Origin: Eledone cirrhosa
Taxonomy: Eukaryota
Assembly: GCA_964016885.1 (NCBI GenBank)
Contig: OZ024742.1
Coordinates: 203,980,001 to 204,044,000, forward strand
Reading direction: 5' to 3'
DNA length: 64,000 bases
The position numbers and the translations under genes are program-made. Of the stretch, positions 2,167 through 9,665 are shown piece by piece. How positions within the stretch are numbered: position 1 is the stretch's first letter; each line of letters opens with the position of its first letter. The notes below the pieces were generated by a model. That model saw nothing but the letters and a program-made list of their open reading frames with translations, had not been told where the DNA came from and did not search any database.

Positions 2167-2260
<94 letters not shown>

Positions 2261-2954
2261 CAATATATATAGAAACACACAGATACATGCGGACACACAC
2301 ATATACATGAATGCACCCGCACCCAACCGTGAGTTAAGGGTGCCAACTTCACCGATGTTGCTCAATGAATGACTGGGACAGACCTCGCAAGGACTCTATA
2401 TCTTTATGATGTATTCTTTTTGTTTATGCCACGAAACTACGTAGTCGAGGAATCTAGGAGCAGTTTAGGTATGATACATTGTATTACTAATTATATCTAA
2501 ATGTTTCTTCTCTCTTCATAATGTATTTTTAACTCTGATACTGGTTCAGTCTAGTTCAACCGGATTGGTCTGTCCCAGTCATTCATTGAGCAACATCGAT
2601 GAAGTTGGCACCCTTAACTCACGGTTGGGTGCGGGTGCATTCATGTATATGTGTGTGTCCGCATGTATCTGTGTGTTTCTATATATATTGTTAATAACTC
2701 CCTCTGGTCGAGCAATCTTTGAAGTGTGGGGACTGCTGGAAAGCTTCCATTACTCATACTTCTCGCCTCCTTCACCACCTCTTCTACGGCTTCGATATAA
2801 ATACGCCCTCCGCCTCCGTGGTATTTTCTTCGGGGTTATAAGAGGTTTAGCTCTGTTTCTGGACCGTTATATCGCGTGACTATCTCCACCTCCGCCTTTT
2901 GGGATTCTTTCTCACGTCGTGTAGACGCGTTCTTGAGACTAGTAAAATGAGGTA

Positions 2955-3044
2955 TCCTCTTGATAAGTCGGCAGACCTCGCAAGGACTCTATATCTTTAT
3001 GATGTATTGTTTTTGTTTATGCCACGAAACTACGTAGTCGAGGA
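2955..3044 (+). ncRNA. Type I hammerhead ribozyme, U3-A8 core variant, long stem II
   Basis: TCCTC-TTGATAA-GTCGGCA...TGCCAC-GAAA-CTACGTAG-TC-GAGGA. Stem I TCCTC/GAGGA, palindromic stem III ACTACGTAGT, predicted cleavage after GUC (3039). Confidence 0.8.
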
Positions 3045-3548
3045 ATCTAGGAGCAGTTTTAGGTATGATACATTTTATTACTAATTATATCTAAATGTTT
3101 CTTCTCTCTTCATAATGTATTTTTAACTCTGATACTGGTTCAGTCTAGTTCAACCGGATTGGTCTGTCCCAGTCATTCATTGAGCAACATCGATGAAGTT
3201 GGCACCCTTAACTCACGGTTGGGTGCGGGTGCATTCATGTATATGTGTGTGTCCGCATGTATCTGTGTGTTTCTATATATATTGTTAATAACTCCCTCTG
3301 GTCGAGCAATCTTTGAAGTGTGGGGACTGCTGGAAAGCTTCCATTACTCATACTTCTCGCCTCCTTCACCACCTCTTCTACGGCTTCGATATGAATACGC
3401 CCTCCGCCTCCGTGGTATTTTCTTCGGGGTTATAAGAGGTTTAGCTCTGTTCCTCGACCGTTATATCGCGTGACTATCTCCACCTCCGCCTTTTGGGATT
3501 CTTTCTCACGTCGTGTAGACGCGTTCTTGAGACTAGTAAAATGAGGTA

Positions 3549-3638
3549 TCCTCTTGATAAGTCGGCAGACCTCGCAAGGACTCTATATCTTTATGATGTA
3601 TTGTTTTTGTTTATGCCACGAAACTACGTAGTCGAGGA
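3549..3638 (+). ncRNA. Type I hammerhead ribozyme, family A
   Basis: Same motif 594 bp downstream of 2955-3044. Confidence 0.8.
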
Positions 3639-3707
3639 ATCTAGGAGCAGTTTAGGTATGATACATTTTATTACTAATTATATCTAAATGTTTCTTCCCT
3701 CTTGATA

Positions 3708-3737
<30 letters not shown>

Positions 3738-3741
<4 letters not shown>

Positions 3742-6700
3742 CGTTTCTGAATTTGTTTAGCAAGATTCTTTATCTGAAATCGTGTGTTGAAACCGATATT
3801 GTTATACTTTGGGAGGGTCATGTTGCCAATAAGAAACACACGCACCAGTTGCTTTCACTTCAATTTATTATAATAAATTTATAATAAACTTATAAATTTA
3901 TAAATTTCTGGTTGGTGGGTTGGTTCCACAACCAGATAGTTGTTTATATATAGTCATAGTTCTTTCGTCACACACTCTGTGACCTCTTCAGTGACTGGGG
4001 ATTCCTTTCTTTGTTTCTGTGCCTCTCCTTTGTTCTGTCCTACGCCATTTTGTTTCTGTGTGTGTGTTGTGTGTTCAGTCTGCGCATGCGCCACATCCGG
4101 GTGTCTGTGTGTGTTTATGTTCATTTATTTATTTGTTTATTTACATGTTACTGGTTGGTTGCTTGTTCTATGTGTGTGTGTGTTTTCATTTTGTCCTTAA
4201 TTGTAAGTTGTGATGTTGCTGTTCCACTCATATTTTCTATTTAATTTTGGTTGTAATTTTTTTATGTTTATTGCCTCTGTAATTTGTCTAAACATTGCGT
4301 CTTTTCTGTGTGTAGATTCTATTTTTATTTCTATGTTCTCTAATTTACCCTTGTGTTCTATTTTAGCATGTTGGTAGAGTACAGATGATTCTTTATTATC
4401 TTGAAGGTCTCGCCAGTGTTCATTTATCCGTTCCCCTACACTACGGGCTGTCTCACCTATGTACACTATATTTTTGTCTCTACATTGTCCTTCAGTACAT
4501 CTTATGCTATACACTACATTTCTAGTTTTACAGTTAATATGGGGGCTTATTTTACAGGTTATACATTTCTTATCTATACATGAGGGTCTTTGAAAAGGGT
4601 ATGTCTTCCTAATAAGTGTTTTTAAGGAGGTACCTGGTCTTTCTACTATCTGAATATTGAGTTTATGTTTATTTAGGGCCCTTCTAAATTTGTAAGCTAA
4701 TTCACCTCTAGGGGTTGTATCGATGAACATTACACTCTGGTATTTATTGCTATCATACCATGATTTTATTCTATTAGCCTTGTTCCTAGTTCTTTCTATT
4801 CTATTCCAAAATTTGCTCCTATATAAGGGGCAGGTCCCATTTATGTCATTATTTACCGTTTTATCTGATTTTATCTCTCTGATTGTAGCCAGAGAACTGC
4901 ATACGGTGGATGAAGTGTTGTATGTGTCTCACTAGTTCTTCGGGGTTGCACATGCGGGACACGTTTCTCATCACCCGTACCAAATCCGCAATCAGTATGT
5001 TGATTTTGGTATGGTCCGAAACGGCCGAGTTTCGGTGGATCAGATGTTTGGAAGTCATGGGTTTGGCATAATGGGAATGGAGGATTTGTTTTTTGTTGTT
5101 AATGGTATCTAACCAGAGCTCTGTGTCTAGTACAGGTAATCGATGGTTGGGGTGTTTACTTGGGTAGTCTATAGTAACTCTGATGCTCTGGTGGATGGAG
5201 TTAGCTATTTGCTGGATGCTTTCCATTGTGTTTTTCTCTAGTTCCTGACTGTCCTCTAGTGGGGGTGTCTTAACTACGATGTTTATATCATCTACGTAGC
5301 GGGAGTACATTATCAGGGTTAAGGGGTCTTCTAATTGTTCTTTAAGTTTAAGTTTAAGTCTACTGTCCCACCATACCATGAATAAGTTAGCTATGTCGCC
5401 TGCAATGCTAACACCAATGGCTGCTCCTTCCTCTTGGGCATATGTTTTTCCATTAAATTTGAACATATGTTCCTTAAGGGTTAGTTTTATGCTGGCCCCT
5501 ACGGCATGTGCAATCATGTTCTTCAGTTCATCGTGGTTTTCGGGTGTCCTTATGGCTCCGGTCCACACGTTCCATCTATCTGTGTGGGTTTTCTTGGCCT
5601 TTGAGGTAATGGTAGGTGGTCTGCCTCTTGCTGCTCTTGTAGGGCACAGGTTGCTAAGGTCATATGTGTCTAGGTAATTATTACTATAGGTAAGCCTAAG
5701 TAGGAGTCCCAGCTCACTGGTATCAATCCCAAGGAACTCAACCTTGCTCTCACTGATCATTTCTACGCATTAGATGGATACAGGGACACAACATCCATAC
5801 TGCCTATTATGCAGTTTGTTAGGTCCCCAGATCGGTTACTCACGCCGATTCTGCTGAGGAGGTCCTCCGTGCTGTCACATACATCTGGGGATATTTCAAT
5901 GATGGGGCGTATGATCAGGGAGAGGAAGTAGGACAGTCTGTAGTTACTAGCAATGATTGCTCCACAGACTGGCCGTGTTGGTGGTCCCGCGACAGGGTCA
6001 CAGCCCGTTTTATGGTCTTTTCGAAGCCCATACAACGCCGGCACGTCATTGTTCTAGGCCTGGAAGTTGTTGGCAGTCCTTTTGTTGGGCTGCATTATAT
6101 TCGTCCACATCACCATATGGGCATTGAGGGCTTTTTCTCTATCCTCATGCTCCTGTGGTGTTACCTCTCTTGTGTTAGTGATGTGGGGTTGCATTGCCTG
6201 GATGTAGTTTGGCAGGCTGTCAACCGACATTCTGCCAGACTTGTCTGTTGGAAAGCATGCTATCTCTCCATTACGTGAGCGCTGCATGAGCTTACGCAAG
6301 CCATTTGCAGATTTATCTCCCAGTTGCTGGGCCTCCATTCTATTATGCTTCTTGCTATACTGTTCTATAATATTTCTAAGTTCGGATCTAGCTATACTAA
6401 ATTGTGCTTCTGTTTGTTCATCGACCTGCGACGGCAATTGCGTGCGTTTGTTAAATGGTAAAATCGTGGCGTGGACTCGTCGCAGGTCAAATGATTTATC
6501 GGAGGGATTATAAAACGTAGAGTTCCAGGCTGCTGCTTTATGTGTACTAGTGCTATTGTTATTGTTAGTTGTGTTGTTTCTATTTCTATTTCCACCAACA
6601 GCCTCATGGTTGTTTCTATGTCTCTCACAATTACTCCTGTCTCTTTCCACTGGCTCATTGTTGTTATCTACCCTATTTTGTGTGTCTGTGTGTTCGTCTT

Positions 6701-6930
6701 GGTTATTCTCTTTGTCCTTAGTCTCCCTTCTCTTTTTAATCCTATTACTTTCCCTTATTTCTGTGATTTCTGTGCTACTGTCATTACTTGTTTTCTGTGT
6801 ATGTGTGTTTGTTAAGATTATGGTGGTGGTGAGAGGCATTGAATGTGTGTGTGTTGTTGTTGTTGATGTGTGCTGTTGTTGATGCGTGTTGTTGTTGTCT
6901 CCGTGTGTGTTATTGTTGTTGTGTGTGTTG
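3738..6930 (-). mobile_element. Penelope-like element, left arm of inverted dimer (defective RT plus GIY-YIG, pLTR)
   Basis: ORF pieces 6054-6839, 5763-6044 (LYGLRKDHK, SMDVVSLYPS), 4861-5760 (QEEGAAIG, RYVDD, LPVLD) and 4197-4730 (VVY...YIGET). 3' pLTR with HHR ends in (TA)n. Confidence 0.93.
3952..3996 (-). ncRNA. Minimal type I hammerhead in PLE pLTR
   Basis: Minus strand AGTCA-CTGAAGA-G-GTCACA-GAGTG-TGTGAC-GAAA-GAAC-TA-TGACT. Confidence 0.8.
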
Positions 6931-9660
6931 TTAAATCATTCGACCTGCGACGAGTCCACGCCACGACTTTACCATTTAACAAACGCACGCAATTGCCGTC
7001 GCAGGTCGATGAACAAACAGAAGCACAATTTAGTATAGCTAGATCCGAACTTAGAAATATTATAGAACAGTATAGCGAGAAGCATAATAGAATGGAGGCC
7101 CAGCAACTGGGAGAAAAATCTGCAAATGGCTTGCGTAAGCTCATGCAGCGCTCACGTAATGGAGAGATAGCATGCTTTCCAACAGACAAGTCTGGCAGAA
7201 TGTCGGTTGACAGCCTGCCAAACTACATCCAGGCAATGCAACCCCACATCACTAACACAAGAGAGGTAACACCACAGGAGCATGACGATAGAGAAAAAAC
7301 CCTCAATACCCATATGGTGATGTGGACGAATATAATGCAGCCCAACAAAAGGACTGCCAACAACTTCCAGGCCTAGAACAATGACGTGCCGGCGTTGTAT
7401 GGGCTTCGAAAAGACCATAAAACGGGCTGTGACCCTGTCGCGGGACCACCAACACGGCCAGTCTGTGGAGCAATCATTGCTAGTAACTACAGACTGTCCT
7501 ACTTCCTCTCCCTGATCATACGCCGCATCATTGAAATATCCCCAGATGTATGTGACAGCACGGAGGACCTCCTCAGCAGAATCGGCGTGAGTAACCGATC
7601 TGGGGACCTAACAAACTGCATAATAGGCAGTATGGATGTTGTGTCCCTGTATCCATCTAATGCGTAGAAATGATCAGTGAGAGCAAGGTTTAGTTCCGTG
7701 GGATTGATACCAGTGAGCTGGGACTCCTACTTAGGCTTACCTATAGTAATAATTACCTAGACACATATGACCTTAGCAACCTGTGCCCTACAAGAGCAGC
7801 AAGAGGCAGACCACCTACCATTACCTCAAAGGCCAAGAAAACCCACACAGATAGATGGAACGTGTGGACCAGAGCCATAAGGACACCCGAAAACCACGAT
7901 GAACTGAAGAAAATGATTGCACATGACGTAGGGGCCAGCATAAAACTAACCCTTAAGGAACATATGTTCAAATTTAATGGAAAAACATATGCCCAAGAGG
8001 AAGGAGCAGCCATTGGTGTTAGCATTGCAGGCGACATAGCTAACTTATTCATGGTATGGTGGGACAGTAGACTTAAACTTAAACTTAAAGAACAATTAGA
8101 AGACCCCTTAACCCTGATAATGTACTCCCGCTACGTAGATGATATAAACATCGTAGTTAAGACACCCCCACTAGAGGACAGTCAGGAACTAGAGAAAAAC
8201 ACAATGGAAAGCATCCAGCAAATAGCAAACTCCATCCACCAGAGCATTAGAGTTACTATAGACTACCCAAGTAAACACCCCAACCATCGATTACCTGTAC
8301 TAGACACAGAGCTCTGGTTAGATACCATTAACAACAAAAAACAAATCCTCCATTCCCATTATGCCAAACCCATGACTTCCAAACATCTGATCCACCGAAA
8401 CTCGGCCGTTTCGGACCATACCAAAATCAACATACTGATTGCAGATTTGGTACGGGTGATGAGAAACGTGTCCCGCATGTGCAACCCCGAAGAACTAGAG
8501 AGACACATACAACACTTCATCCACCGTATGCAGTTCTCTGGCTACAATCAGAGAGATAAAATCAGAGTGTATAGAGGAGCCAGAACCAAATGGGAAAAAA
8601 TGGTAAATAATGACATAAATGGGACCTGCCCCTTGTATAGGAGCAAATTTTGGAATAGAATAGAAAGAACTAGGAACAAGGCTAATAGAATAAACTCATG
8701 GTATGATAGCAATAAATACCAGAGTGTAATGTTCATCGATACAACCCCTAGAGGTGAATTAGCTTACAAATTTAGAAGGGCCCTAAATAAACATAGACTC
8801 AATATTAAGATAGTAGAAAGACCAGGTACCTCCGTAAAAACACTTATTAGCAAGACATACCCTTTTCAAAGACCCTCATGTATAGATAAGAAATGTATAA
8901 CCTGTAAAATAAGCCCCCATATTAACTGTAAAACTAGAAATGTAGTGTATAGCATAAGATGTACTGAAGGACAATGTAGAGACAAAAAATATAGTGTACA
9001 TAGGTGAGACAGCCCGTAGTGTAGGGGAACGGATAAATAAACACTGGCGAGACCTTCAAGATAATAAAGAATCATCTGTACTCTACCAACATGCTAAAAT
9101 AGAACACAAGGGTAAATTAGAGAACATAGAAATAAAAATAGAATCTACACACAGAAAAGACGCAATGTTTAGACAAATTACAGAGGCAATAAACATAAAA
9201 GAATTACAACCAAAATTAAATAGAAAATATGAGTGGAACAGCAACATCACAACTTACAATTAAGGACAAAATGAAAACACACACACACATAGAACAAACA
9301 ACCAACCAGTAACATGTAAATAAACAAATAAATAAATGAACATAAACACACACAGACACCCGGATGTGACGCATGCGCAGACTGAGCACACAACACACAC
9401 ACAGAAACAAAATGGCGTAGGACAGAACAAAGGAGAGGCGCAGAAACAAAGAAAGTAATCCCCAGTCACTGAAGAGGTCACAGAGTGTGTGACGAAAGAA
9501 CTATGACTATATATAAACAACTATCTGGTTGTGGAACCAACCAACCAACCAACCAGAAATTTATAAATTTATAAATTTATTGTAAATTTATTATAATAAA
9601 TTGAAGTGAAAGCAACTGGTGCGTGTGTTTCTTATTGGCAACATGACCCTCCCAAAGTAT

Positions 9661-9665
<5 letters not shown>
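6931..9665 (+). mobile_element. Penelope-like element, right arm of inverted dimer
   Basis: Near-identical reverse complement of about 3797-6499. ORFs 6870-7376, 7386-7667, 7862-9007 (RT) and 8994-9263 (GIY-YIG C-terminus). Ends in (TA)n. Confidence 0.93.
9464..9508 (+). ncRNA. Minimal type I hammerhead in PLE pLTR
   Basis: AGTCA-CTGAAGA-G-GTCACA-GAGTG-TGTGAC-GAAA-GAAC-TA-TGACT. Confidence 0.8.

What the first reader, a model, noticed from the sequence alone, without database searches (positions are those of the whole stretch)
2259..3712. Large retrozyme-like family A: about 593 nt non-coding monomers delimited by hammerheads, three loci in 64 kb
Seen: head-to-tail units of 591-594 bp at 2259-3712, 31638-32525 and 46268-47250. 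Each unit has one type I HHR, there is no RT, and the loci start at different points of the unit. Established: animal non-LTR retrozymes are HHR tandem repeats, typically a few hundred bp, that yield circular RNAs and are thought to use PLE enzymes. Inference: self-cleavage at GUC 3039 and 3633 releases a monomer that circularises and is copied by rolling-circle reverse transcription. The unit is long for this class and the family appears high-copy.
Basis: partly seen in the sequence, partly recalled or inferred. Interest (0 to 1): 0.88.

Follow-up and report, generated by a model that had tools for sequence, protein, structure and literature searches.

The report
Self-cutting RNA repeat with Penelope footprints
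This is one of thousands of young copies of a 594-base non-coding jumping element carrying a predicted self-cutting RNA; the kind is known, but its copies nearly always end at two fixed points, which suggests that a borrowed Penelope-type enzyme copies a probably circular RNA into both strands of TA repeats.

Summary
Real, and mostly as described. The 591-594-bp unit carries one type I hammerhead (cut after 3039 and 3633) with the known U3-A8 core swap and a long loop-2 hairpin; Rfam misses it. A hammerhead 28-mer has 7,049 exact matches in the genome.

Corrections: two of the three window loci are two-armed (back-to-back), only the 5' ends vary, and 594 nt is within the published range.

The 3' ends sit in (TA)n at two fixed sites, about 81 and 243 nt after the cut. 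Of 44 two-armed insertions, 40 pair one site with the other and none pairs like with like. This is the Penelope 'tail' signature. Arms stop exactly at the cut more often than at controls (21 vs 6, 5, 6). One insertion repeats a shortened unit joined exactly at the cut, which favours a circular template.

No copy is the terminal repeat of a coding Penelope element. The partner enzyme, expression and cleavage remain unshown, and an RNA-editing signal did not replicate.

Verdict: new member of the animal non-LTR retrozymes. The scan has reported 591/595-bp U3-A8 units, apparently this family, on other DNA of this genome.

The parts
2167..2258 (.). (TA)n target array, left of insertion 1
2258..2384 (-). 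Insertion 1, inverted arm: unit positions q122-q248 (q1 = base after the cut); outer 3' end at site B
   Evidence: 99.2% to unit; ends classed
2379..2384 (.). 6-nt overlap joining the 5' ends of the two arms
2379..3713 (+). Insertion 1, forward arm: q527-q594, two whole monomers, then q1-q81; outer 3' end at site A
2379..2451 (+). Incomplete hammerhead (3' half only, GUC ending 2446; core lost at the arm junction)
2447..3039 (+). Monomer 1, 593 nt, cut site to cut site
2954..3044 (+). Type I hammerhead: 5-bp stem I, core UUGAUAA (U3-A8), stem II with one bulged base and a 13-bp hairpin in loop 2, palindromic 10-nt helix III; predicted cut after 3039
3040..3633 (+). Monomer 2, 594 nt, 43% GC, predicted circle (folding z -3.5 on this strand, -0.5 on the other, 40 shuffles)
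3121..3287 (+). Internal copy of the 'tail' between inferred RT start sites A (q81) and B (q243-248), about 162-167 nt
3548..3638 (+). Second complete hammerhead; predicted cut after 3633
3711..3739 (.). (TA)n target array, right of insertion 1; separates it from an unrelated coding Penelope-like element
31636..32525 (-). Insertion 2: single arm q374 to q81, 890 nt, 591-nt monomer, hammerheads cut at 32307 and 31716, site A end at 31636, TA on both sides
46267..46440 (-). Insertion 3, inverted arm q499 to q81 (site A end), hammerhead cut at 46347
46440..47250 (+). Insertion 3, forward arm q27 to q243 of the next round (site B end); hammerhead cut after 47005, helix III palindrome broken by one change

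Best explanation
A non-coding retrozyme whose 594-nt unit carries a hammerhead predicted to cut after GUC, and which is likely copied from a circular monomer RNA into (TA)n repeats by a borrowed Penelope-type reverse transcriptase starting at two fixed internal sites. Steps. (1) Tandem copies are transcribed: inferred, promoter unknown. (2) The hammerhead cuts after GUC: predicted, with genomic footprints; probably slow or needing two units, since helix III is a short palindrome. (3) Cut monomers are ligated to circles by a host ligase: inferred from other retrozymes and from one mis-joined unit. (4) A Penelope-type RT/endonuclease, perhaps a dimer, nicks (TA)n on both strands; one DNA end primes about 81 nt after the cut and the other about 243 nt after it, helped by a few AU bases: the two fixed ends and their pairing are shown, the enzyme is inferred. 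(5) Each cDNA runs backwards for a variable length, often more than one round, and the two are joined at their 5' ends, or a single arm is joined to the TA array: the products are shown, the route is inferred. My odds: Penelope-type mobilisation about 0.9, circular template about 0.65 given that.
For: Fixed ends: in 49 consecutive insertions on contig C1, 23 of 24 single-armed ones end at A or B; all 25 two-armed ones point outward, 23 pair A with B, 0 pair like ends, 2 have one odd end. In 31 further loci, 17 of 19 two-armed insertions pair A with B and 0 pair like ends (rows read by eye). 2,579 exact site-A-to-TA joints genome-wide. Penelope RT starts at two internal sites whose gap is the 'tail', the first about 85-92 nt after its hammerhead cut, and extends both strands (PMC11167929); the tail often sits at one end only (PMC8557442). 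The coding PLE next door shows the same layout with a tail of about 56 nt. Continuity: spacing across the cut is exact in 246 of 246 junctions; arms reach 2.9 kb. One template per insertion: copies differ 0.55% between rounds and 0.48% between arms, against 2.7% between insertions; insertion-private variants are in all copies 30 times, in one copy 130 times, in some copies 2 times (110 insertions). Cut site used in vivo: 21 arms begin exactly at q1 against 6, 5 and 6 at three control positions (p 7e-5, or 4e-4 with duplicates collapsed); both arms end at q1 at 3 places. L201/L202 holds a 521-nt unit, q76-q594, joined bluntly at the cut twice in tandem, the copies differing at 1 of 339 bases. 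Structure: 97.4% of cells paired over three subfamilies 75-84% alike, with U-A, U-G and C-G at one stem I pair.
Against: Cleavage, circles and expression are untested. The stops at q1 are well under 1% of junction crossings (rough estimate), which a barely active ribozyme on a linear multimer would give too. ViennaRNA gives stems I and III near zero probability in the circle; in nascent fragments stem I forms in only one of four lengths tried (0.7) and stem III stays at or below 0.08. Covariation is thin: one pair changes on both sides, score reached by 28 of 500 shuffles. The A-to-G excess among shared variants (8 of 27) did not replicate (0 of 6 in new loci). No partner PLE was identified: no significant likeness of the tail region to five nearby element ends (best z 2.6), and no enrichment of the neighbouring PLE beside family A (1 of 85 vs 5 of 583 TA arrays). 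Sister subfamily A2 has 2 B/B cases among 23 two-armed insertions (read by eye). In the anole PLE, uncut RNA was the main template in vitro. 'Private' means private among about 110 of roughly 3,500 insertions. L201/L202 is a single event.
Confidence: 0.6

Rival explanations
1. Same Penelope-type two-site priming, but the template is an uncut or partly cut linear multimer read through from a tandem locus; the ribozyme is weak and mainly trims transcripts.
For: More than 99% of arms cross the cut site (estimate). Poor predicted folding of the ribozyme. Uncut RNA is the main substrate of the anole PLE in vitro. 8 of 9 Xenopus retrozyme dimers did not cleave. Four arms stop at q1 only after one or more full rounds.
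Against: Arrays could only shrink each generation, yet arms of nearly five units occur in a young subfamily. Variants shared by some but not all copies are rare (2). The repeated mis-joined unit in L201/L202 cannot self-cleave and needs one monomer copied more than once.
Confidence: 0.27
2. The template is a linear cut monomer and the RT jumps from its 5' end to its own 3' end, making tandem cDNA without any covalent circle.
For: Explains shared variants and L201/L202 equally well; free ends at the cut are seen. End-to-end jumping by R2-type RT is recalled, not checked here.
Against: 246 of 246 junctions have exact spacing; jumps are expected (recalled) to add or lose bases.
Confidence: 0.07
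3. The unit is the pseudo-LTR of an ordinary coding Penelope element, seen as truncated copies.
For: It has every insertion feature of a PLE; many Xenopus retrozymes are homologous to pLTRs. One A2 copy, L118, is joined head-to-head to a coding PLE arm without TA.
Against: Arms that run past one unit continue into another copy of the unit, never into an ORF; 42 of 49 insertions have TA on both sides; PLE protein hits near the loci belong to separate insertions. A rare master copy is not excluded genome-wide.
Confidence: 0.03
4. A DNA-level minisatellite spread by unequal exchange or fold-back repair, with a chance or dead hammerhead.
For: Tandem and palindromic layout; Rfam gives no hammerhead match.
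Against: Fixed 3' ends with variable 5' ends, dispersal over many contigs, excess of ends at the cut site, and core and stems kept across three subfamilies.
Confidence: 0.03

Closest known systems
Metazoan non-LTR retrozymes (Cervera and de la Pena 2020, PMC7229834, parts 2-4 of 6 read, supplement unreadable; Li, Clavereau and Pollet 2026, 10.64898/2026.07.22.740005, parts 1-3 of 5 read, supplements closed)
   Same: Non-coding tandem unit, one type I hammerhead per unit, GC under 50%, thousands of copies, PLEs in the same genome, size within the reported 51-972 bp.
   Different: Longer than the 170-400 nt invertebrate examples; U3-A8 core with a long loop-2 hairpin; the hammerhead is predicted blocked in the circle, whereas most animal retrozyme circles are predicted to leave it free; two-armed insertions with two fixed ends are not described in the parts read; RNA not shown here.
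Penelope-like elements with endonuclease, e.g. anole Poseidon PAc (Frangieh et al. 2024, PMC11167929, parts 1-2 of 4 read; Craig et al. 2021, PMC8557442, passages)
   Same: Tandem and inverted insertions, 5' truncation, two internal RT starts, tail at one end only, first start about 80-90 nt after the hammerhead cut, AT-rich or (TA)n target.
   Different: No ORF; tail about 162 nt instead of 30-40 nt; start sites are U-rich with short AU matches to the target rather than AC-rich and non-homologous; target is strictly (TA)n.
PLE hammerhead variants (Cervera and de la Pena 2014, PMC4209133, passages; Perreault et al. 2011, PMC3088659, passages)
   Same: U3-A8 covariation occurs in Schistosoma PLEs and was reported active in vitro; a bulged base in helix II and a palindromic helix III are described for D. 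virilis Penelope.
   Different: Here helix III can form 3 bp in the monomer, and loop 2 holds a 13-bp hairpin kept across three subfamilies.

Membership tests
Non-LTR retrozyme | [quoted passage not shown] | tested here: met
   27 of 74 arms hold a complete monomer
Non-LTR retrozyme | No protein-coding capacity, no LTR, PBS or tRNA head | tested here: met
   longest ATG ORF 78 aa, not kept in A2; no tRNA; ends are TA arrays; PPT not searched
Non-LTR retrozyme | Self-cleavage at the hammerhead | not testable with these tools
   indirect only: 21 vs 6, 5, 6 arm ends at the cut; weak predicted folding
Non-LTR retrozyme | Expression as linear and circular monomer RNA | not testable with these tools
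   no RNA holder listed; circle inferred
Non-LTR retrozyme | Co-occurrence with autonomous PLEs | tested here: met
   RT plus GIY-YIG-type element at 3740-9664 (the endonuclease label is from motif recall, Pfam hit only RVT_1 below its cut-off); 27,851 exact hits of its end 24-mer
Type I hammerhead | Core with paired positions 3 and 8, GAAA, UH triplet, stems I-III | tested here: met
   UUGAUAA in 154 of 161; ribozyme fold -23.3 vs MFE -24.4 kcal/mol in isolation; 97.4% of cells paired
Type I hammerhead | Loop 1-loop 2 tertiary contact for fast cleavage | not testable with these tools
   loop 2 is replaced by a long hairpin; no test run
Autonomous PLE (unit as pLTR) | RT-endonuclease ORF between the repeats | tested here: not met
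PLE-type insertion | 5' truncation, inverted arm, tail at one end only | tested here: met
   40 of 44 two-armed insertions A+B, 0 like pairs
PLE-type insertion | Sequence link to the pLTR of a specific partner PLE | tested here: inconclusive
   none among five nearby ends; one possible hybrid, L118; whole-genome PLE set not examined

The most novel reading that the evidence does not exclude
Each two-armed insertion records one ribozyme-made RNA circle copied round and round by a Penelope RT dimer from two dedicated start sites, one for each strand of a break in (TA)n. The L201/L202 insertion is a fossil of a mis-ligated short circle closed exactly at the ribozyme cut. This would be direct genomic evidence for rolling-circle retrotransposition of animal retrozymes and for a fixed division of labour between the two PLE start sites.
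Probability: 0.45. Interest if true: 0.72.

Novelty: new member of a known kind. Interest (0 to 1): 0.5.

Why it matters
That animal retrozymes are copied from circles by Penelope enzymes is proposed, not shown, in the papers read here, and the later steps of Penelope insertion are described there as unvalidated. This young family gives base-level predictions: where the RNA is cut, the two places where cDNA starts, that the two starts go to opposite strands, and which DNA is the target. These can be tested with one RNA and one purified protein. The family also shows that standard hammerhead models miss thousands of U3-A8, long-loop ribozymes in one genome. It does not define a new class of element.

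Tried and rejected
Rfam at gathering score and at E up to 10: no hammerhead. Sequencing runs: no RNA holder listed; four runs laid were contigs of unrecorded kind and say nothing on expression. RNA editing: the A-to-G excess in shared variants (8 of 27 vs 5 of 114) was absent in 31 new loci (0 of 6); pooled 7 A-to-G vs 4 T-to-C, p 0.075; not claimed. Neighbouring PLE as partner: no sequence likeness, no adjacency enrichment. A search for other elements sharing helix III found a third subfamily (8 loci), the L201/L202 insertion and one unrelated hit, but no coding element. G-to-A at q78 in terminal copies (8 of 59 vs 1 of 123 internal) fits wobble pairing of the primer but equally a start 3-4 nt further 5'; not decisive. 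5' ends are spread but not uniform (peak at q300-400, p 0.03); unexplained. The right-half hammerhead counts are partly circular, because the pattern required them. The 'AA' in the tally comes from two insertions in L174 being merged. Rows dropped from the 49-insertion count: L067_0 (A2 copy) and L073_1 (duplicate). The top-hit loci are biased to full units and were not used for the A+B count. Literature searches listed no paper on cephalopod retrozymes or on the two-end rule in retrozymes; subscription journals, Repbase and unreadable supplements (PMC7229834, the preprint) were not seen and may hold this family.

Full report
OBSERVATION. The window lies at G000:C3:203980001-204044000 in a 3.0-Gb genome. 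Earlier scan notes call it cephalopod; I did not test that. BLAST of 3040-3633 against the window finds three insertions. Numbering the unit from the base after the predicted cut (q1 = 3040): insertion 1 is an inverted arm (2258-2384, q122-q248) joined by a 6-nt overlap to a forward arm (2379-3713: q527-594, two whole units, q1-81). Insertion 2 is one minus-strand arm (32525-31636). Insertion 3 is again two arms back to back. All lie in (TA)n. The unit is non-coding and has no tRNA.

RIBOZYME. Rfam finds nothing, but the motif is complete: a 5-bp stem I, core UUGAUAA, stem II closed by G10.1-C11.1 with one bulged base, GAAA, a 10-nt palindromic helix III and GUC. U3-A8 replaces C3-G8; it is fixed in the family (154 of 161), occurs in Schistosoma PLEs (PMC4209133, passages) and was reported active in vitro (PMC3088659, passages). 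Loop 2 holds a 13-bp hairpin. Two sister subfamilies, A2 (75% alike) and A3 (about 80-84%), keep the structure: 97.4% of cells pair, and one stem I pair runs U-A, U-G, C-G, but the covariation score is reached by 28 of 500 shuffles. In isolation the ribozyme fold is 1.1 kcal/mol above the minimum. In context it is predicted to form poorly: stems I and III are near zero in the circle, and stem I forms in one of four nascent lengths. Cleavage is therefore probably transient, dimeric or protein-assisted (inference).

COPY NUMBER AND ENDS. A 28-mer of the ribozyme matches exactly 7,049 times. The first 100 matches form about 50 insertions, which suggests roughly 3,500 insertions (extrapolation). 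I fetched every locus in the first 54 Mb of C1. Of 49 insertions (median 897 nt, longest 4,577), 24 have one arm and 25 have two, always with 3' ends outward. The 3' ends fall at site A (q80-82) or site B (q243-249): 23 of 24 single arms; 23 of 25 two-armed insertions pair A with B, none pairs like with like. A second set of 31 loci of one young subfamily gave 17 of 19 and no like pair (rows, by eye). In A2, 18 of 23 pair A with B, 2 are B/B and 3 are odd (by eye; sample selected for B ends). Site A is joined directly to TA at 2,579 places. The 5' ends are spread over the unit with some clustering.

WHAT THE ENDS MEAN. The anole Penelope protein cleaves and extends both target strands and starts cDNA at two internal RNA sites. 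The first lies 111-118 nt into the ORF, with the ribozyme cut at +26, and the gap between the sites is the genomic tail (PMC11167929, parts 1-2). The tail is often at one end only (PMC8557442, passages). Family A shows the same signature with a tail of about 162 nt. So does the coding PLE beside it, with about 56 nt. Both sites follow a predicted long hairpin and have AU-rich bases that could pair with the TA primer. I infer Penelope-type priming with one site per strand.

TEMPLATE. A linear cut monomer would give arms of at most 81 or 243 nt, but 63 of 74 arms exceed 243 nt (the sample required a ribozyme match, which favours this). All 246 junctions measured have exact spacing. Copies within an insertion differ by about 0.5%, between rounds or arms alike, against 2.7% between insertions. 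Variants private to an insertion are in all of its copies (30) or in one (130), seldom in some (2). Arms begin exactly at q1 in 21 places, about 18 independent, against 6, 5 and 6 at control positions; at 3 places both arms end there. So some templates had a free 5' end at the predicted cut, but fewer than 1% of crossings. One insertion, L201/L202, repeats a 521-nt unit in which GUC is joined bluntly to q76, twice, with 1 difference in 339 nt. It lacks one strand of stem I, so it cannot cut itself, and is best read as a short circle copied for more than one round; a repeated end-to-end jump would look the same. An apparent A-to-G editing signal failed replication.

NOT A pLTR; PARTNER UNKNOWN. 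PLE protein hits near the loci belong to separate insertions. One A2 copy, L118, joins a coding PLE arm head-to-head without TA; it may be a hybrid insertion or a later deletion, and both its ends are of the long type. The abundant neighbouring PLE (27,851 hits) is not enriched beside family A and shares no significant sequence with it.

COMPARISON. The element meets every testable feature of the animal non-LTR retrozymes (PMC7229834, parts 2-4). Its length exceeds the invertebrate examples there but is inside the 51-972 bp of the 2026 preprint (parts 1-3), which links retrozymes to PLEs by co-occurrence and pLTR homology and leaves the mechanism open. Searches listed no description of cephalopod retrozymes; the giant squid paper only counts 235 Rfam hammerheads (passages). 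Unread supplements and Repbase may hold the family. The scan's own notes report 591- and 595-bp U3-A8 units and other families with the same two-end rule elsewhere in this genome. My reading was formed before I saw them, except the editing test, which one note prompted.

VERDICT. A new member of a known kind, with unusually clear genomic traces of how it moves. Shown: anatomy, copy number, fixed paired ends, TA target, excess of ends at the cut. Inferred: cleavage, circle, the enzyme and its dimer. Interest 0.5.

Noticed in passing
window 3740-9664: Palindromic Penelope-like element (RT and C-terminal endonuclease, frameshifted) with a minimal hammerhead on each arm (3991 minus, 9469 plus) and a tail of about 56 nt at the left end only; 27,851 exact hits of its end 24-mer.
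   Followed up: partly
window 43278-45093: Second two-armed retrozyme-like family, unit 520-522 nt, canonical core, long loop 2, GUU triplet, two different outer ends in (TA)n.
   Followed up: partly
L201/L202 (G000:C6:87071715 and 87072236): Tandem 521-nt units joined bluntly at the ribozyme cut to q76; priming at site A still occurred without the upstream hairpin.
   Followed up: yes
L118 324-1731: Coding PLE arm joined head-to-head to an A2 arm with a short overlap and no TA; possible hybrid insertion pointing to a partner family, the one also at window 25700-26830.
   Followed up: partly
L077 about 700-1770; L067 minus strand near 7580 of the reversed locus: Another U3-A8 hammerhead tandem family, unit about 300 nt, ending in (TA)n.
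   Followed up: no
L068 8856; L114 750: Further hammerhead-like motifs with long loop-2 hairpins and palindromic helix III in other repeats; long loop 2 seems a recurring theme in this genome.
   Followed up: no
L103, centre of the insertion: The two arms are joined through several tandem copies of an 11-nt piece of the unit, suggesting RT slippage at the junction.
   Followed up: no
window 2949-2959: A small upstream hairpin is predicted to compete with stem I of the ribozyme, a possible off switch in the circle.
   Followed up: partly
window 49187-50392, 37387-37794, 51091-54575: Fragments of other Penelope-like elements and of an APE-endonuclease LINE (labels from motif recall).
   Followed up: no
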